DNA from: a virus
DNA: 64,000 nt
Direction: 5' to 3' (one strand)
IMG/VR virus record: IMGVR_UViG_3300043444_000257
Location: 1 to 64,000 of that record
In this document: positions 3,267-34,077 of the stretch, piece after piece
Numbering within the stretch: position 1 is the first letter of the stretch
Layout of the letters: each line of letters starts with the position of its first letter
Made by a program: the position numbers and the translations under genes
The notes under the pieces: generated by a model
Database searches by the model: none
Seen by the model: only the letters and a program-made list of their open reading frames with translations
Told to the model about the DNA's origin: nothing

Positions 3267-3274
3267 TATTTATT
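3267..3274 (-). promoter_or_regulatory. T4-type late promoter core (AATAAATA)
   Basis: Minus strand reads AATAAATA-C-ATG-ATG; matches the gp55-dependent TATAAATA core. Confidence 0.6.
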
Positions 3275-15200: not shown

Positions 15201-16934
15201 GTGATACATTAAGCCTGCATTATTGATCCCTCGTCTTATTAGAACACACTCTCCCGAAATAGATTCTGAATCGCTTTCTTCTTTGAGACTAATCTGCTTT
15301 CTGTTATTGTGAGTTATAAAAGTCACTCTATATATTTTGTTGTTTGCCAACGAATCAGTGTCGGCTACAACTAATATTCTTGCACCTTCAAAAACAAATT
15401 CTCCATCGATGTTGTAACCCGTGCTTCCTTCGATTTTGCTAAAAACATCGTCCGTAAAATCATCAATATAGTCCACGGTAGCTTTAGCTGTATAACCGTG
15501 GTTGAATAGTTTTATATTCGGAGAAAATTCTATAATTGGTCTTTTTGCTCGGGCAGATTCAGCTGCATCGAAGTCTTGCCCTCTTAAAGAATATGAATAT
15601 TCCAAAACACTTCTATGGAACCATCTGTTATATCGTGCCCAAGGATTTATATCTTTACTATCTTTAGCAATAGTGATATAGTCTTTTGTTCCGGGATAAG
15701 CACTTGCATCATCGTATGGCTGAGTGTCGAATCCTTCGTTATCGAAAAGAACTTCTGGTAATTCAGATGACAACACCGGGACAACTAAATCAGCGAATCT
15801 AGTAAGTGTTATTTTATTTCCAACACCTTCTACTAACCATGAATCAGTAGCGTATTTCGATGGTGTAACGTTTCCCATAAATTCAACTACTAGACCGTTA
15901 GTGAATTCAACACCGTTGCTGCTCTTATAATTTGTCTTACCCAGTATTTCTTTTTCTATATCAATCTTAGTGTTAGATTCAATATCTGCTATTACGAATC
16001 TTCCAAATTTATTAGGATCTGTTACACTTTGATAATAAAGAATGTCTGGAGAATCATATGGAACTGTAAATGTAATCGTTCCATTTTCAATTTTATTATT
16101 AGTCACCCCTTGATTATAATCAAGAGCGGTTGCCTGGCTAGAAACTATCTCTATAAATTCCCAGTCTTGGCTGTTCACATCGATACTGCTACCATCGTTG
16201 GCGCTGATTTCAACTTTGGCTTTCCATAGCTTATTATCATATACAACAATAGATCCGGCAAAATAAGTTCTGTTAGGATCGTAAATCAAAGATCCCGTAT
16301 CATAACTAGTTCTAATAGCGAACCCATCTTTAGGAACATTAACAACAAATTTATAAGTTTGTCCTCTATATAAAGTTATTGACGGATTGTTAGTATAACC
16401 GTCGGGAGTAAAAATAAAACTATTCACAGAGGTTTTTACTCTGTAGGTGCTGACAACCGATGACGACTGCCCATAAACTGAAACCGGAGGAGGGCCGTCT
16501 GGGGCCCAGAAGTATTCTCTATAGTTTACAAATTTGTCCCAGTCTATTGGCGGATTCCAAGTATAGTGTTCTTGGCTAGTGAATAGATCATCTCTTTCTT
16601 CTGTATTTCCAAAAAATCTTAATTGATTTTTGAAATCTAGATAATCATAATACTCTGTAATCTTTTGATCTTTATTGTAAACAACACCAGGTTCTAATTG
16701 ATATCTGCTGCGTAATGTGTTATCTGTGTCAAGATAAACATCTTTTCCATTAAATGTTTTTCCGTATCTGCGACCAACATAACCAACAGTTTTCTCAAGA
16801 AGACCTGGCTGGGTTAGTGGATCCACTACTCCGGATAAAAACTTATCGTTAGTTGGTGTTCTAAAAACCGAAGGTAATAACTCTACAGTTTTTCTAACAG
16901 GAAGACCGCTTTTAGGAAATTTTTTATTTGCCAT
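3270..16934 (-). CDS. Giant (4554 aa) baseplate/virion structural protein, probable gp7-like wedge protein with CBM5/12-like repeats and an FG-GAP-like propeller
   Basis: Uninterrupted 13.7-kb ORF right after gp6 (the T4 gp7 position). Repeats such as Y..GD.V.Y...W and FG.S......GSP, plus G.GY...P.V.I.GDG.GA.A.A motifs typical of large T4-like virion proteins. Confidence 0.7.
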   Translation of the reverse strand: MANKKFPKSGLPVRKTVELLPSVFRTPTNDKFLSGVVDPLTQPGLLEKTVGYVGRRYGKTFNGKDVYLDTDNTLRSRYQLEPGVVYNKDQKITEYYDYLDFKNQLRFFGNTEERDDLFTSQEHYTWNPPIDWDKFVNYREYFWAPDGPPPVSVYGQSSSVVSTYRVKTSVNSFIFTPDGYTNNPSITLYRGQTYKFVVNVPKDGFAIRTSYDTGSLIYDPNRTYFAGSIVVYDNKLWKAKVEISANDGSSIDVNSQDWEFIEIVSSQATALDYNQGVTNNKIENGTITFTVPYDSPDILYYQSVTDPNKFGRFVIADIESNTKIDIEKEILGKTNYKSSNGVEFTNGLVVEFMGNVTPSKYATDSWLVEGVGNKITLTRFADLVVPVLSSELPEVLFDNEGFDTQPYDDASAYPGTKDYITIAKDSKDINPWARYNRWFHRSVLEYSYSLRGQDFDAAESARAKRPIIEFSPNIKLFNHGYTAKATVDYIDDFTDDVFSKIEGSTGYNIDGEFVFEGARILVVADTDSLANNKIYRVTFITHNNRKQISLKEESDSESISGECVLIRRGINNAGLMYHFDGAGWIKSQTKTAVNQSPLFDVFDENGISFSNAETYPVSSFAGTKILSYKVGNTALVDKELGFVLSYQKIDNVGDILFNWNWDTDIFYYTIGQTRYSKKISTGFYQSSLDDVYHNSWIKLNDSFIQPIVDSQIITSPTNTLIFDSIYWTELTTDPSIRFYVNGEKYSGTYTRENNTFVFDQQFNEKDVVVIKIVADVAPDQGYYEIPVGLEKNPFNNDLSEFTLGQAIDHVVTSVEFEDAFSGVIPGSSNLRDLFEHRNYGKRFLKHSGITPIAISLLCDKNNNVIKALQYANKAYTTFKNNFIEKANEIDFNNDVADFVDDIVANLGRIKGPSSPFADSDMIGNGAYNLLRYVVEDEGIKTFSLSERFSLEELSRRAVYIYINGNQLLNKKDYVFDTTFGFLRLTIDVTLQIGDVIDIREYVTTSGCFIPPTPTSLGLYKKYTPMKFLDDTYQEPRWVIQGHDGSITAAFDDFRDDLLLELEYRIYNNIKKEYNPSVFDIDEVVGGYGDSGLYKKSQLDEIVAQNFLKWIMNTNIDYINNDYFDTQNSFTYTYSNMTDPTGSQNLPGFWRGVYQWFYDTDRPHRCPWEMLGFSEKPTWWEDQYGAAPYTRNNLLLWEDLRDGIIRQGDRAGTYDRYKRPTIMSHIPTDGNGKLLSPLDSGLAGNFTLVNNRGPFKLGDVAPVEYGWRSSSEWPFAVIMAMCLMKPLEFITSNLDTSRTKTNKIGQTVSVSTGLFSKLSDALDLSENNPTSGLVQYLIGYVKSKGLSTDSILDVVNNLDVRLSTRLSGFVDKAQQKYLLDSKSPSSSSSTIFVPAENYDIIFNVSSPISSITYSGVIVEKTEGGWIINGYDDISPYFNFYAAVPNQKDPLVSVGGISERFLEWEADKLYNNGQLVRYQSVYFRALRTHTSSTEFEPTLWSKLTGIPQVGAVEAFRRRNFNTLKVQKLSYGTRLSSIQSVVDFLLGYEQYLKSIGFVFDNYNPETQSNEDWSTAVKEFLFWTKQNWMVGSLLTLSPSANKLYVTIPVGVADSLLDSFYDYNVLKVDGKPLSPGFINVNRDFQSLTVETTNTTDGIYYLKLYYVLKEHVAIFTDKTVFSDVIYDKVTGYRQERIKTQGYRTIDWDGDYTSPGFLFDNVNIDAWMPWTDYKLGDIVSYRSYNWTSLSNQNGTELFDETQWTKLDSTPEKQLVPNFDFRINQFYDYYNVDSQGIGETQRDLARHTVGYQQRDYLQNLAEDPVTQFQLYQGFIREKGTINSITKVFDKLSRSTETSISLNEEWAFRLGRFGGTDQLSELEFTILKQHFELNPQPLLFVEYQPSVDTDQNYRIVKADFTIEPIPYTTNINPVSLETPPVKTAGYVNDLTVDYTIKNRQNLTDLNIEEMFDNCHIWVTFDSPSWTVLRFNQSPLLNIDSISKSGTSVTVTLSRPHNFVVGDYVGIKDVINLTGFFEVESIDTRSITVSVAADAQDPEYDISSITPIYILTEARFKSYGDIIPGSMALLKNNSKLWIDNNGSDLWEVINKSNQYSDLTISEYGITTPLYAGTKVLYDDNLKQVISSIPGSGYVMCYVEGPSGLVLKQIVAPPAGLENSVLGSFGTKMAITPDSRFLIIASPSANNVRSDYVGEFDSTKNYLVDDVVLYQGKLWKAVQDVRADGSTADFDLSDWTVAVNIPATPVGSGIGSTAQGMISVYEYVNQQWTISDSFVSPRPSNAESFGSDVCVGQSGSKYYMAVSATGALDKRGRVYLYVYESGEWKHLENENYKGVYNSSPASFYPKGSIVWYDSGLWQANTDTFGDGSTISVDSLSWTRIDPVSTQCSLPQNIALDDDGSTLALGLVSETQLAELVKQGDEFGFSLSMSRDGSILAVGSPNSDGQYFANYRGIWRPDIEYVEGDVVKYDDIYHRLIQRDGEAGDSTTRSYNEEPGSLPWENVGDSSSESSGKVYIYQRNSNDLYQLKQTINNGSMANLNDIDSGSLISSGDQFGWSLDVDYSGSTLIVSSPLADINLQNQGSVYVFRTDGYAPVEYRLKQKLESYEQYPNEYFGQNVQISANTEKIVVGAKNAPFIIPTRLDTTLGTTFDKGRTKFIESQGYSGAAYVFEIKDGIYFLAEKLETDFTPFESFGYSVDVSASSIVVGSPDYKNSITGAKTGNVRLFKKDQSVNSLNVIGQQTETVDIAMIKSISLYDTEKNYKIQELDYVDHAKLKILNSAESEIKFKTSFDPAVYTIGTADQVVDLETAWTTKNVGYLWWNLATAKWKDYEQGDLSYRLGNWNTLAEGSTIDVYEWVETLLLPSEWSALADTNEGIAEGISGQPLYPNDDVYSVKYLFNSAGQPTDTLYYYWVKNKVIVPSNLPGRKISAAAVANLILNPAASGTAFIALIDKDKILTYNLPSVMTSSTAVINLEFRKDKSDLNPIHNEYQLLSDGMAESLPSEKLETKWFDSLIGYDQAGNRVPDPSLPIKQKYGVSFRPRQSMFVDRLAVLKIVVDRVNTILKSQAFADTIDYKNLNLVDEAPGEALNLYDVTVDTYNDLAVVGTVRTKQARLQINIVDGEVDTIDILDSGAGYKVSPPVVIDGDGQGAKATAIIDNQGRITSVRIDSRGKRYNSAVVTVRQFSVLVSADATANGFWSIYAWDDVRKTFFRSASQAFDTTRYWEYADWYKDGYGIGTRLVKEIFQVFEEPTISVEIGDVIRVKEYASGGWAWFEKISDDATTFADKYMLVARQRGTIQLKDTLYNINNAGIGYDNVSSFDTGFYDIENAKELRNILNAIKEDIFVNDYAVEWNKLFFTCIRYVFSEQLYVDWAFKTSFLNAIHNIGPLEQRLNYKNDNLENFQDYIDEVKPYRSTVRQYISRYDTVEPLGMAATDFDLPAAYVEIEGKIIPITETNSTIDSYPWKWWKENRGFSIVDMQVADGGEEYVTAPRVVIDGDGTGATAQAFISNGTVSGIKVLTAGSGYTRAPTVTLVGGNATGYRKARAVPILGDTKARTFDLKIKFDRLAKQGIYSNLSHSQTFTADGFTAVFDLSYAPTRDKSKISIKKNDQIILTSEYSVDLYTTSVGEYTILKGKIRFVDVPSRNDIITISYQKNDELLDSINRIEKYYAPTSGMIGDELGQLMTGIDFGGVSIQGTTFDVTGGWDALPWFTDNWDSVEPSSDYYHIADGSTNYVVLPYTPAEGQQINVYIKRYNEQITKRIDDPYWTPALDSSYAVNPNAEMPTFVGDGSTKVVEIGDYIQTFTGDTLIFRPAESDGSVVVNDPNILDTKISGGSLSAMSGAYATATGTTAEEIAIEGGKFISPDQVPAPEENIPGQVLDSVSIKVFQTTITGSSAIQSTVLVSDGSTRFFDIGINVLEKQSILIYIDKVKQTDYAIDFKLNQIEFPIAPDANKIIEIIAVSVGGLSLLDYQEYEADGDTALFLTNANYIDTSAVFVTVDGIQTDIGFINSTGNFALTNKTVAQFSIKPSARSIVKIIALGANFDVDSTGLSVVRVNRQTVTYEGSTRSFDLDKFVNLQRASSLSSIIVEVNGRALKGVDTVNSVYDGTNNIFELGKDPFEPAGTILPTNLRLFINGELKTFVEDYNYDGTSKELTIVPSVLTVGDVIVIENDFRAEYYIDGNNIVIIDTYPLVDEDEIVVTWFSEYPSLKMVSDEYTGGKVKYRLDYTPLSIDYVWVYKNGIRLTRDQDYYVDLGRNAVYLTQDTTVVDLIKIVLFGDKTYRTPSGFEIYKDMLNGYKFSRYSINDVKLVKQLNYYDTSLEVNDASGLTEPIPSRNIPGVLHINGEKIEYMNISGNVISQLRRGSLGTAIAVLHPAESRVIDIGYQNMIPYNETQDRVDFISDGSTVLIGPLEYTPSKSSRNSWYRDTIPSTYGPCDQLEVFVGGRRLRKDPIAVYDESLGSFSPAADKTLEAEFSVNGTTNYIRLTEAVSAGTRISVIKKTGKLWYERGESTASNGVSLLDSATTIAKFIAQGASDLPE

Positions 16935-26225: not shown

Positions 26226-27074
26226 ATGAATGCACCACCAAAGATAAAATACCTAACCAACAAAGATCTGTTAAGAGAGATACACCTTAGTAAAAACACA
26301 TATTGTTCCTTTACTAAACAAGAATACAGCGAGTATGACCTAATTGTTACGAGCTTAGAAAAAATCAATGTCAGAACAATAGCAGAAGCTAAACGAAATC
26401 GAGCAGCAAAACTTTCTAAGAAAGCACACGAAGCTGCTGTGCTAGCTGAAGGCAAAAAGCTCAGCGCAAAAGATTTTGAAATCGATTATAAAAAAGTTGC
26501 CAAGCAAGATGTAGTTTTCCGCATCATGACTTTTGAACATGTGCCGCTGGCACCGGGTCGCAAAAAGACATTAAAGAATACCGCAGACAGCCACGAGAAA
26601 GTAAACTTTCCTCCTTTTCAACATTGGAAGTTTGATGACAACGACAATCTAATATTAGTAGGAAAGAGTCATTGGAAAGGCGGCTTAAAAACCGGAACAT
26701 TCTCAAAAGATCACGGGCAGATGACTGATAATCTAGCTCGTATGTTTTTAAAGCTCTGCGAAAGGTATGCTACTCGTGGTAACGTCCGAGGTTATACCTA
26801 CAACGACGAAATGAAAGGTCAGGCTATTTTACAGCTTACCCAGATAGGACTACAATTCGATGAAAGTAAATCTGATAATCCTTTTGCTTATTATACTGCT
26901 GCCGTTACTAATTCATTCGTTAGAATCATCAACATCGAAAAACGTAACCAAAACATTAGAGATGACATATTGGAGATGAACGGAATGAATCCAAGTTGGA
27001 CTCGCCAAAATAGCGGAGGAGGCAGCGGAGCAGCTTCGGCTCCGATTACGATCGATACCTCCGATTGGGATTGA
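26226..27074 (+). CDS. gp55: Late-transcription sigma factor, T4 gp55-like
   Basis: YLTNKDLL.EI N-terminus and RGYTYNDEM...A.......QFD..KS.NPFAYYT....NSFVRII..EK are gp55 motifs; sits just before gp47/gp46 as in T4-like phages. Confidence 0.85.
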   Translation: MNAPPKIKYLTNKDLLREIHLSKNTYCSFTKQEYSEYDLIVTSLEKINVRTIAEAKRNRAAKLSKKAHEAAVLAEGKKLSAKDFEIDYKKVAKQDVVFRIMTFEHVPLAPGRKKTLKNTADSHEKVNFPPFQHWKFDDNDNLILVGKSHWKGGLKTGTFSKDHGQMTDNLARMFLKLCERYATRGNVRGYTYNDEMKGQAILQLTQIGLQFDESKSDNPFAYYTAAVTNSFVRIINIEKRNQNIRDDILEMNGMNPSWTRQNSGGGSGAASAPITIDTSDWD

Positions 27075-27105: not shown

Positions 27106-28116
27106 ATGAATCTATTCAAAAAAGCAGCCTGTTTTACAGATATACATTTTGGTTTAAAGAGTGGCAGTAGAACACACAACATTGACTGTGAAGAGTTTGT
27201 CAAATGGTTTTGTGAAGCTGCTAAAGCTGAAGGTGCAGAGACTTGTATCTTCCTAGGCGACTGGCATCACAATCGCTCGACTACAGATGTCAGCACAATG
27301 AATTATACATTGTCTAACCTAGAACATCTAAGTCAAAACTTCGAACGTGTATATTTTATCCTAGGTAACCACGATCTATTCTATAAGGACAAGCGTGAGA
27401 TTAACTCAGTTGAGTTTATGCGTCTGTTCCCTAATGTAGTTCCTATCAGAGACATCTTTACAGAAGGCGATGTAACTATCATGCCTTGGCTCGTAGGAGA
27501 CGAATGGCAGAAGGTTCCTAAGATCAAAAGCAGATATATTTTTGGTCATTTAGAATTGCCGCATTTTTACATGAATGCCATGGTGCAGATGCCAGATCAT
27601 GGGCAATTACAGGATGGGCATTTTGTTAATCAAGAATACGTATTCACTGGTCACTTCCATAAGCGTCAGCACAAAGGTAAAGTTGTTTATATCGGTAATG
27701 CTTTTCCTCACAACTATGCGGATGCCGGAGACGACGAGCGTGGTATGATGCTGTTAGAATGGGGTGGGAAACCCGAGTATAAAACTTGGCCTGCTCAACC
27801 GATATATAGAACATACAAACTTAGTCAGATCATCGACACACCAGATAAGTTACTGCGTGAAAAGATGCATTGCCGCGTAACTATCGACCTTCCTATTTCT
27901 TTTGAAGAAGCTAATTTCATTAGAGATACATTTATTCCTCAATACAATCTACGAGAATTAATGTTAATTCCCGAAAAGGTAGAAGTTGAAAGTGCTTCAG
28001 TGCCTATCGATATTAAATTTGAATCAGTTGATACTATCGTCATGAATCAAATCAATGCTATCGAAAGCGAGACCTACGATAAAGCACTGCTAATGGAGAT
28101 TTATAAAGAACTATGA
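27106..28116 (+). CDS. gp47: Recombination endonuclease subunit, Mre11/SbcD-like
   Basis: Metallophosphoesterase motifs DIH, GDWHH, GNHD, GHLE and GHFH. Confidence 0.92.
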   Translation: MNLFKKAACFTDIHFGLKSGSRTHNIDCEEFVKWFCEAAKAEGAETCIFLGDWHHNRSTTDVSTMNYTLSNLEHLSQNFERVYFILGNHDLFYKDKREINSVEFMRLFPNVVPIRDIFTEGDVTIMPWLVGDEWQKVPKIKSRYIFGHLELPHFYMNAMVQMPDHGQLQDGHFVNQEYVFTGHFHKRQHKGKVVYIGNAFPHNYADAGDDERGMMLLEWGGKPEYKTWPAQPIYRTYKLSQIIDTPDKLLREKMHCRVTIDLPISFEEANFIRDTFIPQYNLRELMLIPEKVEVESASVPIDIKFESVDTIVMNQINAIESETYDKALLMEIYKEL

Positions 28117-29891
28117 TTAAGATTAAAAATCTTACTGTAAAAAATTTCATGAGCGTGGGTAATCAAACCCAAGCCATCGACTTTGACCGTGGACAATTAA
28201 CTTTAGTTCTAGGTGAAAATTTAGATCTAGGAGGTGATGACTCGGGCGCCAGAAATGGCACAGGCAAAACTACAATCATCAACGGACTAAGTTATGCAAT
28301 CTACGGTCAAGCCTTAACTAACATCAAGCGTGATAATCTTATCAATAAGATTAACGGCAAAGGAATGTTAGCAACTGTGACATTTGAAAAAAATGGCATA
28401 GAGTATCACATCGAGAGAGGTCGTAAACCTAACTTACTAAAGTTTAGTATCAACGGACAAGAACAAGAATTACAAGATCTAGACGAAAGCCAAGGTGATT
28501 CTAGAGAAACACAAAAGTCAATCGAAGATGTTATAGAAATGAGCCACGAAATGTTTAAACATCTTGTGGCATTGAACACCTATACTGAACCTTTCTTATC
28601 GATGAAAGCTGCTGATCAGCGTAGCATCATTGAACAACTGCTGGGAATTACACAGTTATCTGAAAAAGCAGAAACGTTGAAAGAACAGATTAAGGCAACT
28701 AAAGATTCTATCTCTGCAGAAAATACTAAAATTGAAACTATCAAGGCTAGCAACGAGCGCATTCAACAAAGCATCGAAAGCCTAGAAAGAAAACAAAGGC
28801 TTTGGAACGACACAAAAGAAAAAAGTATTGAAACTATATTAAAAAGTATCGACCATCTAAGTGATATCGACATAGAACATGAAATAGTTAATCAACGGGC
28901 TTTGGTTGAGTGGACTAAAAACAAAAAAGAAAGAGACGGTCTATTAAGTTTGATCGCAAAACAAACTGCTACCATCGATAAAGAGCAGAAAGTTTTTGAT
29001 AAACTGACAAAAGAACTGGCGTCCCTAGCTGATCATAAGTGTCATAGCTGCGGACAGGACCTGCATGACGAGAAACATAACGTCATGGTCGAATCTAAGA
29101 ACAAACAGGTCAACGAAAGCCGAGAGTCTCTCAAAGAACATCAGTTAGAATTAGCAGATCTCAATGAAGCATTATTACTGTTGGGTGATCCTACTGATTG
29201 TCCTAAGGTGATTTACGACAATTTAGAAGAAGCATTAAATCATAAAAACACCATAGACGGATTAAACAAAGATCTAGAGCTTAAGAAAGCTGAAGAAAAT
29301 CCCTATGACGAACAGATCGAAGAACTAAAAAACACTGCCCTACAAGAAGTTAACTGGGATCATGTTAACGACCTAACCAAGGTTAAAGATCATCAGGAGT
29401 TCTTACATAAACTACTGACTAACAAAGACTCGTTTGTTCGCAAACGCATCATAGATCAAAACCTAGCATTTTTGAATCAACGATTAACCTATTATCTCGA
29501 CAAGATCGGCTTACCACATATCGTAGAATTTCAGAACGATCTGTCTGTGATCATAACACAGCTTGGTCAAGATCTAGACTTTGATAATCTAAGCCGTGGA
29601 GAGCGCAATAGATTGATACTTTCTCTAAGCTGGGCGTTCCGTGATGTGTGGGAAAACCTGTATCGTCCGATCAACCTATTGTTTATCGACGAGCTAGTAG
29701 ATTCGGGTATGGATGCCAGCGGTGTTGAAAGCTCGATCGCTGTGTTAAAACGTATGACCAGAGAAAGACAAAAGAATGTATTCTTAATTTCTCACAAAGA
29801 CGAACTAATGAATCGTGTAAACCACGTATTGAAAGTGATTAAAGAAAATGGATTCACTAGTTATTCAACTGATATTGAAATATTAGAATGA
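28113..29891 (+). CDS. gp46: Recombination ATPase subunit, Rad50/SbcC-like
   Basis: Walker A NGTGKT, coiled coil with CHSC zinc hook, LSRGE signature, Walker B LLFIDE, and ISH H-loop. Confidence 0.93.
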   Translation: MIKIKNLTVKNFMSVGNQTQAIDFDRGQLTLVLGENLDLGGDDSGARNGTGKTTIINGLSYAIYGQALTNIKRDNLINKINGKGMLATVTFEKNGIEYHIERGRKPNLLKFSINGQEQELQDLDESQGDSRETQKSIEDVIEMSHEMFKHLVALNTYTEPFLSMKAADQRSIIEQLLGITQLSEKAETLKEQIKATKDSISAENTKIETIKASNERIQQSIESLERKQRLWNDTKEKSIETILKSIDHLSDIDIEHEIVNQRALVEWTKNKKERDGLLSLIAKQTATIDKEQKVFDKLTKELASLADHKCHSCGQDLHDEKHNVMVESKNKQVNESRESLKEHQLELADLNEALLLLGDPTDCPKVIYDNLEEALNHKNTIDGLNKDLELKKAEENPYDEQIEELKNTALQEVNWDHVNDLTKVKDHQEFLHKLLTNKDSFVRKRIIDQNLAFLNQRLTYYLDKIGLPHIVEFQNDLSVIITQLGQDLDFDNLSRGERNRLILSLSWAFRDVWENLYRPINLLFIDELVDSGMDASGVESSIAVLKRMTRERQKNVFLISHKDELMNRVNHVLKVIKENGFTSYSTDIEILE

Positions 29892-30118
29892 GCACAGACT
29901 CTCATGATAAGATGATCGAAGCGTTCCAGCAGTATTTTAAATGGCAGGAACGCTTTGAATATAAAGGCAGCGACGAGGCAGGCATTAAGGCACGATTTTG
30001 GTTATCAGAAATACGCAACGAGGCAAGTAAAAGGCGAGTAGAAATACAGGAAAAACGTGAGGCTCGTAAATTAGCCAGAAAAGGCAAGCTAGGTCGACCG
30101 CCAAAACTAACTAAGTGA
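29888..30118 (+). CDS. Small basic hypothetical protein
   Basis: 76 aa, ATGA overlap with the gp46 stop, Lys/Arg-rich C-terminus. Confidence 0.6.
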   Translation: MSTDSHDKMIEAFQQYFKWQERFEYKGSDEAGIKARFWLSEIRNEASKRRVEIQEKREARKLARKGKLGRPPKLTK

Positions 30119-30553
30119 GTGCAGTGGACTTATCAAAATCAACCCGTAGAAGAAATACCCGAAGGCTATATTGGCTTTGTTTATCTCATCACTAATCTCA
30201 CGACCGGACAAAAATACATAGGCAAAAAACTAGCACAGTTTAAACGCACAAAACCACCACTCAAAGGCAAAAAACTTAAACGCAGGAGCACAGTAGAAAG
30301 CGATTGGCGCGATTACTGGGGTTCTAGCGATAGGTTAAACGCAGATGTCCAAGCACTAGGTCCGGCAAATTTCACTAGAGAAATACTTTATCTTTGCAAA
30401 TCCAAGGCAGAAATGTCATATTTAGAGGCTAGAGAGCAGTTTGAACGCAGGGTTTTAGAAACCGACGACTATTATAATGGCATTATAAACGTCAGAGTAG
30501 GCGGATCGAACATACTTAGGCAGCGTCTTTTAGAACAAAATCAGGCAAAATAA
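30119..30553 (+). CDS. Small GIY-YIG family endonuclease (catalytic domain only)
   Basis: GFVYLITN.....YIG motif, YWGSS, catalytic-type E in YLEAREQ, and YYN; 144 aa, GTG start. Confidence 0.85.
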   Translation: MQWTYQNQPVEEIPEGYIGFVYLITNLTTGQKYIGKKLAQFKRTKPPLKGKKLKRRSTVESDWRDYWGSSDRLNADVQALGPANFTREILYLCKSKAEMSYLEAREQFERRVLETDDYYNGIINVRVGGSNILRQRLLEQNQAK

Positions 30554-30559
30554 TGCGGT

Positions 30560-31030
30560 TTTTTGGCTAGCGCAGGCCTAAGTTCGTGCGCTCTAAACCT
30601 GGTCAATCGTGGTCACAGGGACGGAATTCCATGCCGCAATGGTGCTCAACTACTACCCATTTATGGATGAAGATCGCTTAAAACCTGCGATTTAGTTGTT
30701 TGAAAAGGATTTGTAAAGGTAAAATGAGGGGAGAAAAACCCCACGTCTGCAATAATGATAGCGTATTATTGTAGGCCGCCGTTGTATAAAGACGGAGCTC
30801 GAGGTATCGGACAACCGCCTCTGTAATGCTCTAACGCTGTGTGACATGATTCGACTCGGATAATGTTTTTTCTTTGCCCGGCAACGGGCAAAGTGTGACT
30901 GAAACGATCTGGATAATGCTAAACTTTGCGCTTCGCGCAAAAAAATTATTTCATGCATCTATGAAATAATTAAAAGAAAAGGAATAATGCGCTGAGCGTA
31001 AGCGAAAGCGCAAAAGAGCTTTAGCTCTTT
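30560..31030 (+). ncRNA. Candidate large structured non-coding RNA (family not recognised)
   Basis: Largest non-coding gap in the window, with about ten stems, G-U pairs that favour the + strand, a GCAA tetraloop and a terminator-like hairpin at 31013-31030. Confidence 0.55.
31013..31030 (+). terminator. Putative intrinsic terminator hairpin AAAGAGC-TTTA-GCTCTTT
   Basis: 7-bp inverted repeat ending in a T-rich tract, immediately before the next late promoter. Confidence 0.45.
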
Positions 31031-31035
31031 CTTCC

Positions 31036-31043
31036 GATAAATA
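31036..31043 (+). promoter_or_regulatory. Late promoter core (GATAAATA)
   Basis: TAAATA core 28 nt upstream of the ATG at 31072. Confidence 0.6.
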
Positions 31044-31071
31044 AACTATAATTCTTTGGATTAATGACTAA

Positions 31072-32565
31072 ATGCGAATTACCCAAGTTCAAAACTCTTA
31101 TCTCTACGAAGGCCTAGATCGCTCGACATCAAATTCTATGATGTTATGGGAAAGTGCGGGTTTCAAGTTACGTGAAGCAGCACTGACAGCCGATCAAATA
31201 CAACAGATATTCCAATCCGTAGAGCAGGGTGCTACTGATGCTGGCAGTAATCGCACATTATTGGGCAAAGGCAAAGATGCCGCTTCGGCAGTTAACAAAG
31301 CCTGGGAAGATCTAAAGACAAAAATTCAAGACAGTGGTCCTATCAAAGCCGTAGATCAAAAGTATGACGACGTTGTAGCTAAGATCGAAAAAGGACTAGG
31401 TGGTCCAGATAACGCTATCAATAAAATAATCCAATCATATCGTAAGTTTGCCAAAGAGCATCCTATCGCACAGGGTTTCATTTACTCTGCATTGATCGCT
31501 GCTGCTGGTATTTCAGGCGCAGGACTTGGTGGTGCAGCGGTATTAGGTCTGCTGAAGATGACAGACAAACTGTTGCAAGGTGAAAAGTTTTCGTCTGCAG
31601 CCTATTCAGGCGCCAAAACTGGTGCAATGGCCTTTGCTGCTTCCAAGCTAGGTGACTTAATCAAAGGCGTTAAACCTGGTGAACAGGTTCCTGAACCCGA
31701 TCCGGGCTCAGTCGCTTGGGAAAAAAGAGATTTTGAAAACTACGATTACTACATGCATCCTAACAACGGCACTGTGGTCCAAGTGCCAAAAGGTATGGGT
31801 TCACCGTTTGATTCTAGCACAGCCGCAGGACAGGCCAGAGATCAATTAATAGCAGCAAACAATGCCGCTGGATCAGGAGCGAAGTCTGCACTGAAAGATC
31901 TAGCCACTGACCCAAATCTAAGTCCTATACAACAAAAGTTAGCCGCTGACCTTGCCGCAGGAAAAAATGTGCAGGGTGCAGATGAATTTATTAGAAAGGC
32001 CATAGCCGGTGCTGCTAAACGTCAATCTATGATCGGTGATAATCCAGATGGTTCGGCAGGCGAAGCCATGCGCCAGTTCATGTCTTTACAAAGATTGCAG
32101 CAGGCAGCAATGGGCGACAGCATTATACGCACAGGGAAGAAACTGTCTGAAGGTCAAGTCTATATGATCTTCAATCGTGTCATCCGTAAAGAACTCACAG
32201 AAGGACCTATGGACGCGATCAAAGGAGCTGCTGGCAAAGCCGCTGGTTGGTTAGCGACCAAAGGCAAGAACTTAACTACTAAAATTACCGCAGACAAATT
32301 AAATTCTGCTTGGCAGAACGCAGGATCACCATCTGACCCTGATGATTTACATAATGTTATCACTGGAACCGGAGTTGCTCCTGACCTAGTCGATGCGGTC
32401 TACAAAGATTTAGGAATCTCTAGTGCTGTTCAGCCCGCGCCTGACGAAGAAAAAGCCAAAAGCAAGACCGACTATGCGTCAATCAAAGAATTAGTATTAA
32501 AATTAGATAAAAAAGGTAAACAGCGCATCGCTGCTTATCTGCAAAAACAACTAGGAACCGCTTGA
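31072..32565 (+). CDS. Hypothetical Ala/Gly-rich virion (probable internal/ejected) protein
   Basis: 497 aa late-expressed ORF with a hydrophobic Gly-rich segment (FIYSALIAAAGISGAGLGGAAVLGLL) and L-x-E sites; shares an LDKKGKQRI motif with the next gene. Confidence 0.55.
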   Translation: MRITQVQNSYLYEGLDRSTSNSMMLWESAGFKLREAALTADQIQQIFQSVEQGATDAGSNRTLLGKGKDAASAVNKAWEDLKTKIQDSGPIKAVDQKYDDVVAKIEKGLGGPDNAINKIIQSYRKFAKEHPIAQGFIYSALIAAAGISGAGLGGAAVLGLLKMTDKLLQGEKFSSAAYSGAKTGAMAFAASKLGDLIKGVKPGEQVPEPDPGSVAWEKRDFENYDYYMHPNNGTVVQVPKGMGSPFDSSTAAGQARDQLIAANNAAGSGAKSALKDLATDPNLSPIQQKLAADLAAGKNVQGADEFIRKAIAGAAKRQSMIGDNPDGSAGEAMRQFMSLQRLQQAAMGDSIIRTGKKLSEGQVYMIFNRVIRKELTEGPMDAIKGAAGKAAGWLATKGKNLTTKITADKLNSAWQNAGSPSDPDDLHNVITGTGVAPDLVDAVYKDLGISSAVQPAPDEEKAKSKTDYASIKELVLKLDKKGKQRIAAYLQKQLGTA

Positions 32566-32566
32566 T

Positions 32567-33664
32567 ATGAGAATAAATGAACTAATCACAGAAAGTCAAC
32601 AGCTAGACGAAGGACCATTGGCCAACAAGATCGGCTCAGCAGTAGGCAAAGGTGTAGGCACACTGGCCAAAGGCGTGGGCGCCGTAGCCGGAGGTGTAGC
32701 AGGTCTAGGTGCTGCGGTTAAGAAAGGTTTTGCCGCAGGTAAGAAAACAGTGGCAGGTGCTGGAGACGATGACAGCGGTTCTGCCACAGCTCAAGCAGCG
32801 CCAGGTAGCACCACAGGCGAACCTGCACAACCAGCACCTACAGGCGGAGCAGCAGGAGCAGATGCTCAAAGCGGAGCCGCTACCGACACAGGAGCAGCAC
32901 CAGCAGGTGGCAAGAAGCCAGGTTTTGTAGCAGGTCTCAAAGCAGGACTAGCAGGTAAAAAAGGACAGCCCGCCGCTGAACCAGCTGCTGGAGGAGCAGC
33001 ACCAGCAGCAGCACCCGCAGGCGGTAGCGCAGCCGCACCAGCAGCAGGAGCCGAAGAAGAGCCCGCAGCAGCCGCAGCACCAACTGCACAAGATATTAAT
33101 GCACAAGGTCCTGCAGGAACTGCACCCGCAAAACAACAGACAGGAGCAGCAGCACAGGCTATACAAAAAACTGCACAGGCCACACAAGATGCTGGCACAG
33201 AAAAAGCCGGACAGACAGTTTACGCTCAGGTTAAATCACAGATTAACAATCTAGATAAAAAAGGTAAACAACGTATCCTACAACTGCTACAGAAAAGTCT
33301 AACACAACCAGATCCTAAAGCAGCCAAAGCAGGTGCAGCACCAGCAGCAGGCGCTCAACCAGCGGCTCAACCGGCAGCGGAACCAGCTGCTCAGGCAGCA
33401 CCAGCAGCAGCACCTGCAGCTCAAGCAGCACCTGCTGCTGAACCAGCGGCTCCTAAGAAGAAAGGTCGAGCTAAGAAAGCCGCAGCACCAACACAGGCAG
33501 AAATTGATGCTGACCGCGAACGCATTATGGGTGTGACATCTGATTCAAAGATTAACGCAGGAAATCCGTTAGCTGAAGCGTTGGCTGCTAAAGTTGAACA
33601 ACACAAACGTCAAATGTTTGAACAGAGTTTGCGCAAAGGCGAATTTAAAATTTTTACAAAATGA
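32567..33664 (+). CDS. Ala/Pro-rich low-complexity virion protein, probable internal head protein
   Basis: MRINELITESQQLDEG N-terminus resembles prohead-protease-processed leaders; long PAA-type repeats; LDKKGKQRI motif. Confidence 0.55.
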   Translation: MRINELITESQQLDEGPLANKIGSAVGKGVGTLAKGVGAVAGGVAGLGAAVKKGFAAGKKTVAGAGDDDSGSATAQAAPGSTTGEPAQPAPTGGAAGADAQSGAATDTGAAPAGGKKPGFVAGLKAGLAGKKGQPAAEPAAGGAAPAAAPAGGSAAAPAAGAEEEPAAAAAPTAQDINAQGPAGTAPAKQQTGAAAQAIQKTAQATQDAGTEKAGQTVYAQVKSQINNLDKKGKQRILQLLQKSLTQPDPKAAKAGAAPAAGAQPAAQPAAEPAAQAAPAAAPAAQAAPAAEPAAPKKKGRAKKAAAPTQAEIDADRERIMGVTSDSKINAGNPLAEALAAKVEQHKRQMFEQSLRKGEFKIFTK

Positions 33665-34077
33665 AAATCAATGAAATAGTTGTAGAAAGTGATGTCGGTG
33701 ACATTGCCAATCTCAGTGCTAAGAATGTTGGCTCTGGTTACGACGCTGTCAACAAATTATTTTCGCCTTCACAATGGTTTAAAGGCAGTGTAAAAACTGA
33801 CGACGAACCAGCTGTTCAAAAAACCAGTCCTAAAACAATCAAACCTTCGTCGACACAGCATCTAGAAAGAGAAGCTGTGATTGACGCTAGTCAAGGTAAA
33901 GAATTATTTAGAAACGATCTAGCACAGATTAAAACTGTCTATGGAAAAATTAAGTCTGGAGATATTGCTGTAAATGATTCTAACAATACTATGTTAGCTC
34001 TTAAAGCAGTGATTAAAGGCCAACCTCTAGACGATCAACAAAAAGTGTTATTAGCCCAGCTAGCCAAACAACTTTAA
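33661..34077 (+). CDS. Hypothetical protein, probable internal head protein
   Basis: MKINEIVVESD N-terminus similar to the preceding gene; ATGA-like coupling with the upstream stop (AATGA region 33660-33664). Confidence 0.55.
   Translation: MKINEIVVESDVGDIANLSAKNVGSGYDAVNKLFSPSQWFKGSVKTDDEPAVQKTSPKTIKPSSTQHLEREAVIDASQGKELFRNDLAQIKTVYGKIKSGDIAVNDSNNTMLALKAVIKGQPLDDQQKVLLAQLAKQL

What the first reader, a model, noticed from the sequence alone, without database searches (positions are those of the whole stretch)
30119..31035. Stand-alone GIY-YIG nuclease followed by a ~480-nt highly structured non-coding region: candidate nuclease-RNA system
Seen: the only large gap in an otherwise packed window begins at the GIY-YIG stop and is full of stems: AGCGCA/TGCGCT (30569-30592); long-range GTCACA (30612-30617)/TGTGAC (30840-30845) enclosing CAACTA/TAGTTG (30647-30698) with inner CCAT/ATGG and ATCGC/GCGAT; GGGG/CCCC (30728-30742); a 12-bp stem GTCTGCAATAAT/ATTATTGTAGGC with two G-U pairs (30745-30776); CCGTT/GACGG; nested GAGC-GAGG-CGG(ACAA)CCG-CCTC-GCTC (30795-30831); and a 9-bp GCAA-tetraloop hairpin (30872-30893). 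G-U pairs and the GNRA loop point to a + strand RNA. I cannot match it to tRNA, tmRNA, RNase P or group I/II intron cores. The 144-aa protein has only the catalytic domain plus a basic loop, lacking the C-terminal DNA-binding modules of I-TevI/Seg homing enzymes. Inference: the RNA may partner or guide the nuclease, by analogy to OMEGA/HEARO RNA-nuclease pairs, or be an independent phage ncRNA, or an R-loop replication origin next to gp46/47. Caveat: similar short GIY-YIG genes occur in many T4-like phages, so adjacency may be incidental.
Basis: partly seen in the sequence, partly recalled or inferred. Interest (0 to 1): 0.85.

Follow-up and report, generated by a model that had tools for sequence, protein, structure and literature searches.

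The report
Full-length Polynucleobacter-1 twin-box phage RNA
The gene-free stretch behind a small nuclease gene of this uncultured giant freshwater phage encodes a real, heavily knotted non-coding RNA of about 480 bases whose first third is an orphan motif catalogued in 2010; its job is still unknown and the nuclease looks like a neighbour, not a proven partner.

Summary
Between the stop of a 144-aa GIY-YIG gene (30119-30553) and the next gene (31072) lies the window's largest gap. It encodes a + strand, multi-domain RNA (30554 to about 31035).

- **Known part:** bases 30565-30701 are a full-length match to Rfam RF01718, Polynucleobacter-1 (100.6 bits, cut-off 37), an orphan motif. The other ~330 nt match no Rfam family.
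- **Structure:** in 74 distinct relatives, all uncultured jumbo T4-like phages, 95.9% of cells in 66 proposed pairs are paired and 47 pairs show compensatory change. This includes four pseudoknots.
- **Twin boxes:** two 12-nt boxes (30854-65, 30907-18) share a 7-letter word that varies between phages but is always identical in both.
- **Nuclease link:** it is adjacent in 104 of 111 loci. Two loci have an unrelated PD-(D/E)XK nuclease there, two have none, and two lineages carry a swapped allele. The nuclease family occurs in 487 cultured phage records; none of the four neighbourhoods I inspected has the RNA.
- **Islands:** the same RNA type precedes a catalytic-domain-only tyrosine recombinase.

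Function is unknown. The RNA-guided reading is not supported but not excluded. This scan has already reported this RNA on many other genomes.

The parts
26226..27074 (+). late-transcription sigma factor (gp55-like), first gene of the syntenic block
   Evidence: phrog_12791, E 1.1e-79. The order sigma, gp47, gp46 is the same in phage PAC2.
27106..28116 (+). gp47-like Mre11/SbcD nuclease subunit
   Evidence: PF00149 Metallophos, E 3.3e-06. Syntenic in the related loci.
28113..29891 (+). gp46-like Rad50/SbcC subunit
   Evidence: PF13476 and PF02463. 48% identical to gp46 of the jumbo phages Atu_ph07 and PA5oct-like phages.
29888..30118 (+). 76-aa basic protein of unknown family
   Evidence: No Pfam or PHROG hit. 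Present only in the nearer relatives.
30119..30553 (+). 144-aa stand-alone GIY-YIG nuclease (phrog_447 / PF19835)
   Evidence: 20 homologues aligned, with G19, Y22, Y33, G35, R87, E103 and N120 invariant. No PDB sequence relative below E 0.2.
30554..31035 (+). whole conserved non-coding RNA, from 1 nt after the stop codon to the terminator
   Evidence: Conserved along its whole length in 43 and 75 non-redundant relatives. Profiles of its three domains hit 120, 111 and 107 places in the loci held then.
30565..30701 (+). domain 1 = Rfam RF01718 Polynucleobacter-1 (helices P1-P6)
   Evidence: 100.6 bits against a cut-off of 37, model positions 1-141 of 141. P1, P4 and P6 each have 4 compensatory pairs.
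30556..30558 (+). 5' strand of pseudoknot pk1; pairs with the P3 loop at 30634-30636
   Evidence: 3 pairs, 94.6% paired, GC to AU switch in 16 sequences. It lies 5' of the Rfam model, 3 nt after the stop codon.
30565..30578 (+). pseudoknot pk2: 30565-67 pairs with 30576-78 inside the P1 loop
   Evidence: 2 register-safe pairs, 98.6% paired, 1 compensatory. 2 covarying pairs.
30728..30840 (+). domain 2: P7 (30728-42), P8 (30745-76), P10 (30795-98/30828-31), P11 (30801-04/30818-21), P12 (30808-10/30815-17). Also pseudoknot PK3 (P8 loop 30758-64 with 30834-40) and PK4 (30782-84 with the P12 loop 30812-14).
   Evidence: PK3: 7 of 7 pairs compensatory, 97.9% paired. PK4: 2 of 3 compensatory, 97.7% paired. 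P10: 4 of 4 compensatory. Not covered by any Rfam model.
30854..30865 (+). twin box A: A-CUC-GGAUAAU-G
   Evidence: The 7-letter word equals that of box B in 103 of 103, 72 of 72 and 61 of 62 sequences. 9 different words occur among the phages.
30872..30893 (+). P13, 9-bp hairpin with a GCAA loop between the boxes
   Evidence: 8-bp helix with 3 covarying pairs.
30907..30918 (+). twin box B: A-UCU-GGAUAAU-G
   Evidence: As for box A. The fixed differences from box A are CUC versus UCU and a final G versus A, all transitions.
30925..30971 (+). two further hairpins: GC-rich with a UUCG loop (30925-41) and AT-rich (30944-71)
   Evidence: The first is conserved in most relatives; the second is lineage-specific (read by eye).
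30988..31012 (+). conserved element UGCG-CUGAGCG-UAAG-CGAAAG-CGCA: outer stem plus a GNRA mini-hairpin in an internal loop
   Evidence: The outer stem changes UGCG/CGCA to UGCU/AGCA to AUUGAU/AUCAAU between relatives (read by eye, not counted).
31013..31035 (+). terminal hairpin plus U-rich run (terminator-like); then GATAAATA at 31037-44
   Evidence: In relatives the hairpin is followed by TATAAATA (L031, L075, L097). That this is the T4 late-promoter consensus is recalled, not tested.

Best explanation
What it is. Bases 30554 to about 31035 encode, on the + strand, one ~480-nt non-coding RNA.
- Domain 1 (about 150 nt) is Rfam Polynucleobacter-1 plus a 5' pseudoknot strand that the model lacks.
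- Domain 2 (about 115 nt) has five helices locked by two long-range pseudoknots.
- A tail carries two single-stranded 12-nt boxes around a hairpin. Further hairpins and a terminator follow.

Shown: sequence and structure conservation, the strand, the pseudoknots, the twin boxes, one copy per genome, and restriction to mobile DNA.

Inferred, about 70% likely: the RNA is made as the untranslated end of the early operon (late sigma, gp47, gp46, p76, nuclease). It starts 1-3 nt after the stop codon with no room for a promoter, and it ends before a late promoter.

Inferred, about 35% likely: domains 1 and 2 form a rigid scaffold, and the boxes are read in trans by base pairing with one G-rich strand. 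The two boxes differ only by C/U and G/A changes, which G-U wobble tolerates.

The GIY-YIG nuclease is most likely an ordinary early phage nuclease that shares the transcript, not an RNA-dependent enzyme (about 75%).
For: Identity.
- RF01718 at 100.6 bits, full length.

Structure.
- 66 pairs are 95.9% paired, against 83.3% in shuffles (0 of 500 as high) and 32-43% when the partners are slid.
- 47 of the 66 pairs have compensatory change.
- An invariant G-U pair in P6, many G-U pairs in P8, and better folding of the + strand all fix the strand.

Mobile-DNA restriction.
- Of 21 pattern matches in 185,579 species' genomes, only three carry the RNA. Two are short contigs of one MAG and one is an island contig.
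- 1 of 101 genomes of that MAG's family has it.
- There is one copy in a 281-kb contig rated 80% complete.

Co-transcription.
- The stop codon abuts pk1.
- A 1149-nt contig of an RNA library spans 29769-30913. This is weak, because such libraries can hold DNA.

Twin boxes.
- The word is identical in both boxes in 103 of 103, 72 of 72 and 61 of 62 sequences. The one exception is a misaligned row.
- No complementary column exists within -560 to +520.
- Island RNAs show the same CUC-X / UCU-X layout with other words.

Nuclease as neighbour.
Against: - No partner strand for the boxes was found in the 84.5-kb contig or in a 281-kb relative. One extra exact 12-mer turned up, where about 0.3 is expected by chance.
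- No RNA ends were mapped. The only expression data are contigs from RNA libraries, which can hold DNA.
- Adjacency of nuclease and RNA is tighter than general synteny. Gaps of more than 300 nt between gp46 and the nuclease occur in 34 of 97 loci. Insertions between nuclease and RNA occur in only 3 of 111. Some coupling beyond sharing a transcript therefore cannot be excluded.
- The neighbouring DNA enzyme is in each case small: a GIY-YIG whose domain fills 121 of 144 residues, a 171-aa PD-(D/E)XK, and a recombinase of the catalytic domain only. This pattern fits an RNA that supplies recognition.
Confidence: 0.8

Rival explanations
1. RNA-dependent DNA enzyme. The RNA binds the adjacent minimal enzyme and its twin boxes supply target recognition. 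The enzyme is GIY-YIG or PD-(D/E)XK in phages and a catalytic-domain-only tyrosine recombinase on islands.
For: - A DNA-cutting or DNA-joining gene abuts the RNA in 106 of 111 phage loci: 104 GIY-YIG and 2 PD-(D/E)XK.
- On islands a 194-aa recombinase that is only the PF00589 catalytic domain follows the RNA.
- The GIY-YIG domain fills residues 3-123 of 144, leaving no room for a DNA-binding module.
- The boxes are variable, paired and single-stranded.
- A swapped nuclease allele with unchanged boxes (L043, L055) is what a protein that does not read the target itself would allow.
Against: - The same nuclease family is in 487 cultured phage records. 0 of 4 inspected neighbourhoods has the RNA or a large gap.
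- Its closest cultured homologue (65.7% identical, Melnitz-3) has no RF01718 anywhere in the genome.
- L013 and L091 carry the whole RNA with no nuclease next to it.
- On islands two different box words (AUCGAAAU and AAAUGAA) go with the same tRNA-Phe attachment site and the same 45-nt repeat. The word therefore does not name the recombinase's site.
- No target was found.
Confidence: 0.06
2. Homing-endonuclease reading. The nuclease gene is a free-standing selfish element parked beside a very conserved RNA gene. It cuts that gene's DNA in phages lacking the nuclease, as T4 segB does in the tRNA and stable-RNA cluster.
For: - Two unrelated nuclease families occupy exactly the same slot, each ending 1-3 nt before the RNA.
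- Allele replacement occurs in two lineages whose gp46 is 82-90% identical but whose GIY is 56-61% identical.
- In T4, segB is followed 5 nt later by tRNA-Arg, rnaD and rnaC.
- PHROG families named homing endonuclease are weaker hits of the protein.
Against: - The nuclease is nearly universal, 104 of 111 loci, and co-diverges with gp46 (r = 0.75 over 63 unique loci). That is not the patchy pattern of homing genes.
- No locus of the syntenic clade lacks a nuclease.
- The protein has no DNA-binding domain.
- The family sits at unrelated loci in other phages.
Confidence: 0.1
3. Cis-regulatory leader or riboswitch for the genes downstream. This is the tentative class given to Polynucleobacter-1 in 2010.
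For: - The table of Weinberg et al. 2010 marks the motif 'y y ?'. That the columns mean RNA, cis-regulatory and switch is recalled.
- On islands the RNA lies upstream of the recombinase on the same strand.
- GUUG (30781-84) can pair either locally (P9) or with the P12 loop (PK4), which could be a switch.
Against: - In the phages a terminator-like hairpin and a late-promoter-like box separate the RNA from the next gene.
- The next gene differs between relatives: p497-like in 33, p365-like in 18, p138-like in 1, none of these in 27.
- The RNA is about 480 nt with four pseudoknots, and on islands it ends 550-700 nt before the recombinase start.
Confidence: 0.07
4. The element works as DNA. The twin boxes would be iterons, a replication origin or recombination sites, and the hairpins incidental.
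For: Direct repeats around a hairpin, next to recombination genes. The island version lies next to a recombinase.
Against: - 47 of 66 pairs show compensatory change.
- G-U pairs are kept on one strand only.
- Box spacing varies from 47 to 59 nt.
- The fixed differences between the boxes are wobble-type transitions.
- The box word is unrelated to the island's attachment site.
Confidence: 0.03

Closest known systems
Polynucleobacter-1 RNA motif (Rfam RF01718; Weinberg et al. 2010, PMC2864571)
   Same: Bases 30565-30701 are a full-length member: 100.6 bits, all six helices, same strand.
   Different: - The Rfam model covers 141 positions. Here it is only the first third of a conserved ~480-nt RNA.
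- The CS structure line printed shows neither the pk1 strand, which lies 5' of the model, nor pk2.
- The paper lists it for Burkholderiales and fresh water or estuary (table passage only). Here it sits in jumbo T4-like phage contigs and on small islands.
- The paper's additional files could not be read and may say more.
Phage T4 segB / tRNA-Arg / rnaD / rnaC cluster
   Same: A GIY-YIG gene is followed within 5 nt by about 340 nt of stable structured RNA of unknown function, near internal-head-protein genes.
   Different: - No sequence or profile similarity: nhmmer and RF01718 find nothing in T4.
- rnaC ends in a tRNA-like T-arm (by eye).
- SegB is larger (221 aa by the coordinates). That it carries a DNA-binding part is recalled.
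OMEGA / HEARO RNA-guided nucleases (IscB, TnpB with omega RNA)
   Same: A nuclease gene is directly followed by a large structured RNA on the same strand, in mobile DNA.
   Different: - The protein is GIY-YIG, not RuvC/HNH.
- There is no Rfam HEARO hit.
- There is no transposon end and no single guide at an RNA end.
- The nuclease family mostly lives without the RNA.
Large ornate orphan RNAs of phages and prophages (GOLLD, ROOL; recalled, not tested beyond Rfam)
   Same: Several hundred nucleotides long, many helices and pseudoknots, phage-borne, function unknown.
   Different: No Rfam match to them. This RNA is smaller and has the twin boxes.
Stand-alone GIY-YIG nucleases such as T4 endonuclease II (recalled)
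   Same: About 140 aa and catalytic domain only. The gene here lies next to the gp46/47 exonuclease genes.
   Different: No detectable sequence match to any solved structure, so the relation is untested.

Membership tests
Rfam RF01718 Polynucleobacter-1 | Covariance-model score at or above the curated gathering score (37 bits) over the whole model | tested here: met
   100.6 bits, model positions 1-141 of 141, + strand.
Rfam RF01718 Polynucleobacter-1 | The model's helices are kept by compensatory change in relatives | tested here: met
   P1, P4 and P6 each have 4 compensatory pairs and are 99.7-100% paired. P2 and P5 never vary.
GIY-YIG nuclease superfamily (PF19835 SegE_GIY-YIG; phrog_447) | Profile match over the catalytic domain | tested here: met
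   PF19835 at 124.7 bits (cut-off 25), profile positions 1-123 of 123. phrog_447, E 5.7e-40.
GIY-YIG nuclease superfamily (PF19835 SegE_GIY-YIG; phrog_447) | Conserved GIY and YIG tyrosines plus Arg, Glu and Asn of the active site (the list of residues is recalled) | tested here: met
   G19, Y22, Y33, G35, R87, E103 and N120 are invariant in 20 homologues. Their assignment to catalytic roles is by recall, not by structure.
Free-standing homing endonuclease (Seg type) | A separate DNA-binding module beside the catalytic domain | tested here: not met
   The domain covers residues 3-123 of 144. No second Pfam domain is found.
Free-standing homing endonuclease (Seg type) | Patchy presence among close relatives | tested here: not met
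   Adjacent in 104 of 111 loci; identity tracks gp46 (r = 0.75). Two lineages have a swapped allele and two loci an unrelated nuclease.
Free-standing homing endonuclease (Seg type) | Cleaves the nuclease-free allele near its own insertion site | not testable with these tools
   Needs a bench assay.
RNA-guided nuclease systems (OMEGA/HEARO type) | Nuclease and RNA co-occur obligatorily | tested here: not met
   Nuclease without RNA: 0 of 4 cultured neighbourhoods has it, and 0 of 4 whole records has RF01718. RNA without nuclease: L013 and L091, and the islands.
RNA-guided nuclease systems (OMEGA/HEARO type) | A variable guide segment that matches a target | tested here: inconclusive
   Variable twin boxes exist. 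No target was found in 84.5 kb or 281 kb of phage DNA, and the island word does not match the attachment site. Both phage genomes are incomplete and the hosts are unknown.
Group I / II introns, tRNA, tmRNA, RNase P | Rfam or ARAGORN match | tested here: not met
   No such hit up to E = 10 in 30000-31200. No tRNA or tmRNA in the window.
T4 stable RNAs rnaC / rnaD | Sequence or profile similarity | tested here: not met
   No nhmmer hit of the three domain profiles in the T4 locus. No RF01718 hit in the T4 record.

The most novel reading that the evidence does not exclude
The twin-box RNA is a recognition subunit for minimal DNA enzymes. Its two identical, fast-changing words pair with a nucleic-acid target. 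They thereby aim whichever small catalytic protein is encoded beside it: GIY-YIG or PD-(D/E)XK nuclease in jumbo phages, a catalytic-domain-only tyrosine recombinase on tRNA-Phe islands. That would be a new kind of RNA-guided DNA cutting or joining, unrelated to CRISPR, OMEGA or bridge RNAs.
Probability: 0.05. Interest if true: 0.95.

Novelty: new variant of a known kind. Interest (0 to 1): 0.55.

Why it matters
A ~480-nt RNA with four covarying pseudoknots is among the more complex bacterial or phage RNAs without a known job. RNAs of that complexity have usually turned out to be ribozymes, riboswitches or cores of RNA-protein machines.

This analysis adds several things.
- The catalogued Polynucleobacter-1 motif is only a third of the molecule.
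- The RNA belongs to mobile DNA: jumbo T4-like phages and small tRNA-Phe islands.
- It carries a paired specificity word that changes between close relatives, always in both copies.

That gives concrete experiments: map the RNA ends, swap the boxes, and pull down partners.

It also corrects the tentative cis-regulatory label and shows that many GenBank 'NAD synthetase' phage genes are GIY-YIG nucleases. The limits are that the function is still unknown and that this scan has already reported the same RNA on other genomes.

Tried and rejected
The second TGTGAC (30894-99) gives four invariant pairs, which is uninformative.

2. **Pairing of box A with box B**, as RNAalifold suggested: the GC-type and AC-type words break it, judged by hand. 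Rejected.

3. **Partner of the boxes.** There is no complementary column within -560 to +520. There is no match with up to 2 mismatches in the 84.5-kb contig. In a 281-kb relative there is one extra exact 12-mer, where about 0.3 is expected, and nothing in four smaller contigs. No conclusion.

4. **Box word as the recombinase's attachment core.** Islands with the words AUCGAAAU and AAAUGAA share the same tRNA-Phe site and the same 45-nt repeat. Rejected. The regex that found the island boxes required CUC and UCU, so that layout is not an independent result there. 40 of the 65 loci with 700 nt or more upstream gave no box with this regex.

5. **Box word or its complement as an anticodon loop:** inspected by hand, the positions do not fit. 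Dropped.

6. **T4 rnaC/rnaD homology:** none.

7. **Sigma-70 promoter reading of the boxes:** spacing and hexamers do not fit (and by hand).

8. **A small ORF after domain 1:** the ATG at 30725 is AAG or AGG in relatives. Rejected.

9. **blastn of the RNA against 50,697 cultured phage records:** no match.

10. **Laid RNA-library contigs.**
 - Summed depth looked higher over the nuclease and RNA than over the flanks.
 - The tool states that contig depth cannot rank genes and that uncovered parts prove nothing, so I draw nothing from it.
 - The habitat labels of the runs (river, fresh water) rest on small shares of the sequence.

11. **Papers.**
 - A search for 'Polynucleobacter-1' found one paper, PMC2864571. 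I saw only the table passage and phage passages in find mode.
 - Searches on GIY-YIG, structured RNA and phage, and on structured RNAs, jumbo phage and noncoding RNA, listed nothing on this RNA (listings only).
The 2010 additional files may already show the gene context or the pseudoknots.

Full report
**What is at the coordinates.** The ORF at 30119-30553 (+, GTG start, 144 aa) is a GIY-YIG nuclease.
- It matches PF19835 over residues 3-123, E 3.2e-36.
- It also matches phrog_447, a family of about 148 aa whose label 'NAD synthetase' is evidently wrong, E 5.7e-40.
- The next ORF starts at 31072. The 518 nt between them are the largest ORF-free stretch in a window that is otherwise packed.
- The + strand of 30554-31035 folds at -150.1 kcal/mol with z = -3.58, and 0 of 100 shuffles fold as well. 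The - strand gives z = -2.31.

**A known family covers the first third.** Rfam release 15 gives one hit in the whole window.
- It is RF01718, Polynucleobacter-1, at 30565-30701 on the + strand.
- It scores 100.6 bits against a gathering score of 37 and covers model positions 1-141 of 141.
- No other family reaches E = 10 with any credibility in 30000-31200. ARAGORN finds no tRNA or tmRNA in the window.
- The only paper in the library that holds the name is Weinberg et al. 2010 (PMC2864571). [quoted passage not shown] I recall the columns as RNA, cis-regulatory and switch.

**The RNA is much longer than the catalogued motif.**
Three of these were chance matches.
- In the rest, conservation does not stop at the end of the Rfam model. 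It runs from the stop codon of the upstream gene to a terminal hairpin about 480 nt later.
- Profiles of three consecutive parts hit 120, 111 and 107 places in the loci held at that time.

**Secondary structure.** I built a structure by hand from the Rfam consensus, RNAalifold and a scan for stacked covarying columns. I then counted it with the tool on a MAFFT alignment of 75 non-identical relatives, 74 of them distinct.
- 66 pairs in 16 helices are 95.9% paired. Shuffled columns give 83.3%, with 0 of 500 as high. Partners slid by 1-3 columns give 32-43%.
- 47 of the 66 pairs show a change on both sides.
- P13 was left out of that count because MAFFT shifts its register. My block-wise alignment gives it 8 pairs, 3 of them covarying.

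**Pseudoknots.** Four are supported.
- pk1: 30556-58, just after the stop codon and outside the Rfam model, pairs with the P3 loop at 30634-36.
- pk2: 30565-67 pairs with 30576-78 inside the P1 loop.
- PK3: the P8 loop 30758-64 pairs with 30834-40. All 7 of 7 pairs are compensatory.
- PK4: 30782-84 pairs with the P12 loop at 30812-14.

An invariant G-U pair in P6 and many G-U pairs in P8 confirm that the RNA is read from the + strand.

**The twin boxes.** Around hairpin P13 lie box A (30854-65, A-CUC-GGAUAAU-G) and box B (30907-18, A-UCU-GGAUAAU-G).
- The 7-letter word takes nine forms among the phages: GGAUAAU, GCAUAAU, AGAUAAU, ACAUAAU, AGAUGAU, GGAUGAU, AGAUGAA, GGAUGAA and AGAUGAG.
- The word is the same in both boxes in 103 of 103 loci, 72 of 72 and 61 of 62 aligned rows. 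The one exception is a misaligned row.
- Close relatives with gp46 more than 80% identical carry different words. The word therefore changes often, and always in both copies.
- The fixed differences between the boxes are CUC against UCU and a final G against A, all transitions. One G-rich strand could therefore pair with either box through G-U wobble. This is my inference, and it favours reading as RNA rather than as duplex DNA.
- No complementary partner exists inside the RNA or within 560 nt upstream.
- I found none in the 84.5-kb contig or in a 281-kb relative rated 80% complete. Both genomes are incomplete and the hosts are unknown.

**Whose RNA is it?** The record is an 84.5-kb viral contig rated 23% complete.
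- The neighbours are a late sigma factor, gp47, gp46 and a 76-aa basic protein.
- gp46 is 48% identical to that of the jumbo phages Atu_ph07 (490 kb), Phosso and PA5oct-like phages. PAC2 shares the order sigma, gp47, gp46.
- None of Atu_ph07, PAC2, Melnitz-3 or T4 holds RF01718 anywhere in its record. The 281-kb relative holds exactly one copy.
- blastn of the RNA against 50,697 cultured phage records finds nothing.
- Among one genome each of 185,579 prokaryote species, the pattern hit 21 places. Only three of these carry the RNA: two short contigs of one MAG and one 6.5-kb island contig.
- Only 1 of 101 genomes of that MAG's family has it. It is therefore an RNA of mobile DNA, not a host housekeeping RNA.

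**Is the nuclease a partner?**

For a link:
- Of 111 loci with at least 560 nt upstream, 104 have the GIY-YIG gene ending right at the RNA.
- Insertions between gp46 and the nuclease are common: 34 of 97 gaps exceed 300 nt. Insertions between nuclease and RNA are rare, 3 of 111.

Against an obligate link:
- Two loci (L077, L082) have an unrelated PF24608 PD-(D/E)XK nuclease in the same slot.
- L013 and L091 carry all three RNA domains in another gene context with no nuclease.
- L043 and L055 have gp46 82-90% identical to their relatives and RNA 76-89% identical, but a GIY allele only 56-61% identical. Their box word is unchanged.
- L077 (PD-(D/E)XK) has the same word as L034 and L022 (GIY-YIG).
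- The nuclease family is found in 487 cultured phage records. In Melnitz-3 (65.7% identical), phiM19, S-RSM4 and Mendera the gene is followed by ordinary genes or a 148-nt gap without the RNA.
- Over 63 unique loci the nuclease co-diverges with gp46 (r = 0.75), as does the RNA (r = 0.81). That fits a resident early gene better than a roaming homing gene.

My reading is that the nuclease shares a transcript with the RNA. The RNA begins 1-3 nt after the stop codon, which leaves no room for a promoter. A 1149-nt contig from an RNA library spans 29769-30913, which is weak evidence because such libraries can hold DNA.

**The island version.** I found the L131 recombinase. The earlier notes of this scan then led me to test the islands.
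- In L131 the RF01718 domain (92.4 bits) lies on a contig with a DUF6641 gene. About 800 nt downstream, on the same strand, is a 194-aa tyrosine recombinase that consists of the PF00589 catalytic domain only.
- The stretch between them has the same tail layout: CUC-AUCGAAAU-G, a hairpin, then UCU-AUCGAAAU-A. The 8-mer occurs exactly twice in the contig.
- I fetched eighty related recombinase loci from metagenomes. Twin boxes lie 550-700 nt upstream of the recombinase in its closer relatives. The words are AUCGAAAU, AUCGAAAG, ACCAAAAG, AAAUCAA and AAAUGAA.
- My regex required CUC and UCU, and 40 of the 65 loci with 700 nt or more upstream gave no hit.
- The islands are bounded by tRNA-Phe and a 45-nt repeat of tRNA positions 32-76.
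- Islands with the word AUCGAAAU (L150, L151, L208) and with AAAUGAA (L155, L158) use the same site. The word therefore does not name the attachment site. This removes the simplest RNA-guided recombinase model, though not every model.

**Comparison with T4.** In T4 the GIY-YIG gene segB is followed after 5 nt by tRNA-Arg, rnaD (119 nt) and rnaC (139 nt). The last two are stable RNAs of unknown function, and internal-protein genes lie nearby. The parallel is positional only. There is no profile or Rfam similarity, and rnaC ends in a tRNA-like arm.

**Verdict.** The thing is real, and its first third is already catalogued.
- The rest of the molecule, its pseudoknots, its twin boxes and its home in jumbo phages and tRNA-Phe islands are not in Rfam. 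They are not in the one paper that names the motif, as far as I could read it.
It is not excluded, because every neighbour enzyme is a bare catalytic domain.
- I put 5% on an RNA-aimed DNA enzyme.
- This scan has reported the same RNA many times on other genomes, with the same open question.

Noticed in passing
window 29888-30118: A 76-aa very basic protein with a C-terminal KGKLGRPPK stretch (AT-hook-like, by eye) and no Pfam or PHROG hit. It sits between gp46 and the nuclease only in the nearer relatives.
   Followed up: partly
window 30781-30815: GUUG (30781-84) can pair locally with GAC (30791-93) or with the P12 loop CAAC (30812-15). Both pairings have some covariation, so this may be a structural switch.
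   Followed up: partly
window 30988-31012: A conserved element with a covarying outer stem, a GNRA mini-hairpin and a UGA / GAAA internal loop. It may be a protein-binding or K-turn-like motif; I did not count it.
   Followed up: no
window 3270-16934 (-), 51259-56730 (+), 56767-63999 (+, open): Three giant ORFs of 4554, 1823 and at least 2411 aa, in keeping with a jumbo phage. Not examined.
   Followed up: no
window 31072-34077: Three consecutive proteins with no solid family hit. The first gives only a sub-threshold Pfam match, and I scanned only the first two. The second is very Ala/Pro/Gly-rich. Homologues follow the RNA in varying order in relatives.
   Followed up: partly
GenBank phage records (e.g. 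KR052481 165409-165822, NC_048804 111231-111701): Homologues of the GIY-YIG protein are annotated 'NAD synthetase' in many cultured phage genomes. The Pfam match says GIY-YIG nuclease.
   Followed up: partly
L148 (Synechococcus phage S-RSM4) 1471-2840: The GIY-YIG homologue lies about 660 nt upstream of a tRNA cluster. T4 segB lies inside one. Small GIY-YIG genes near stable-RNA genes may be a recurring theme.
   Followed up: no
L131 6400-6465; L150 83-127 and 7001-7076: The small islands that carry the RNA, DUF6641 and the mini recombinase are inserted in tRNA-Phe. A 45-nt repeat starts in the anticodon loop (tRNA position 32).
   Followed up: yes
L067 (oriented) -891 to -28 relative to the motif: A 287-aa ORF of unknown function is inserted between the nuclease and the RNA in one lineage.
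   Followed up: no
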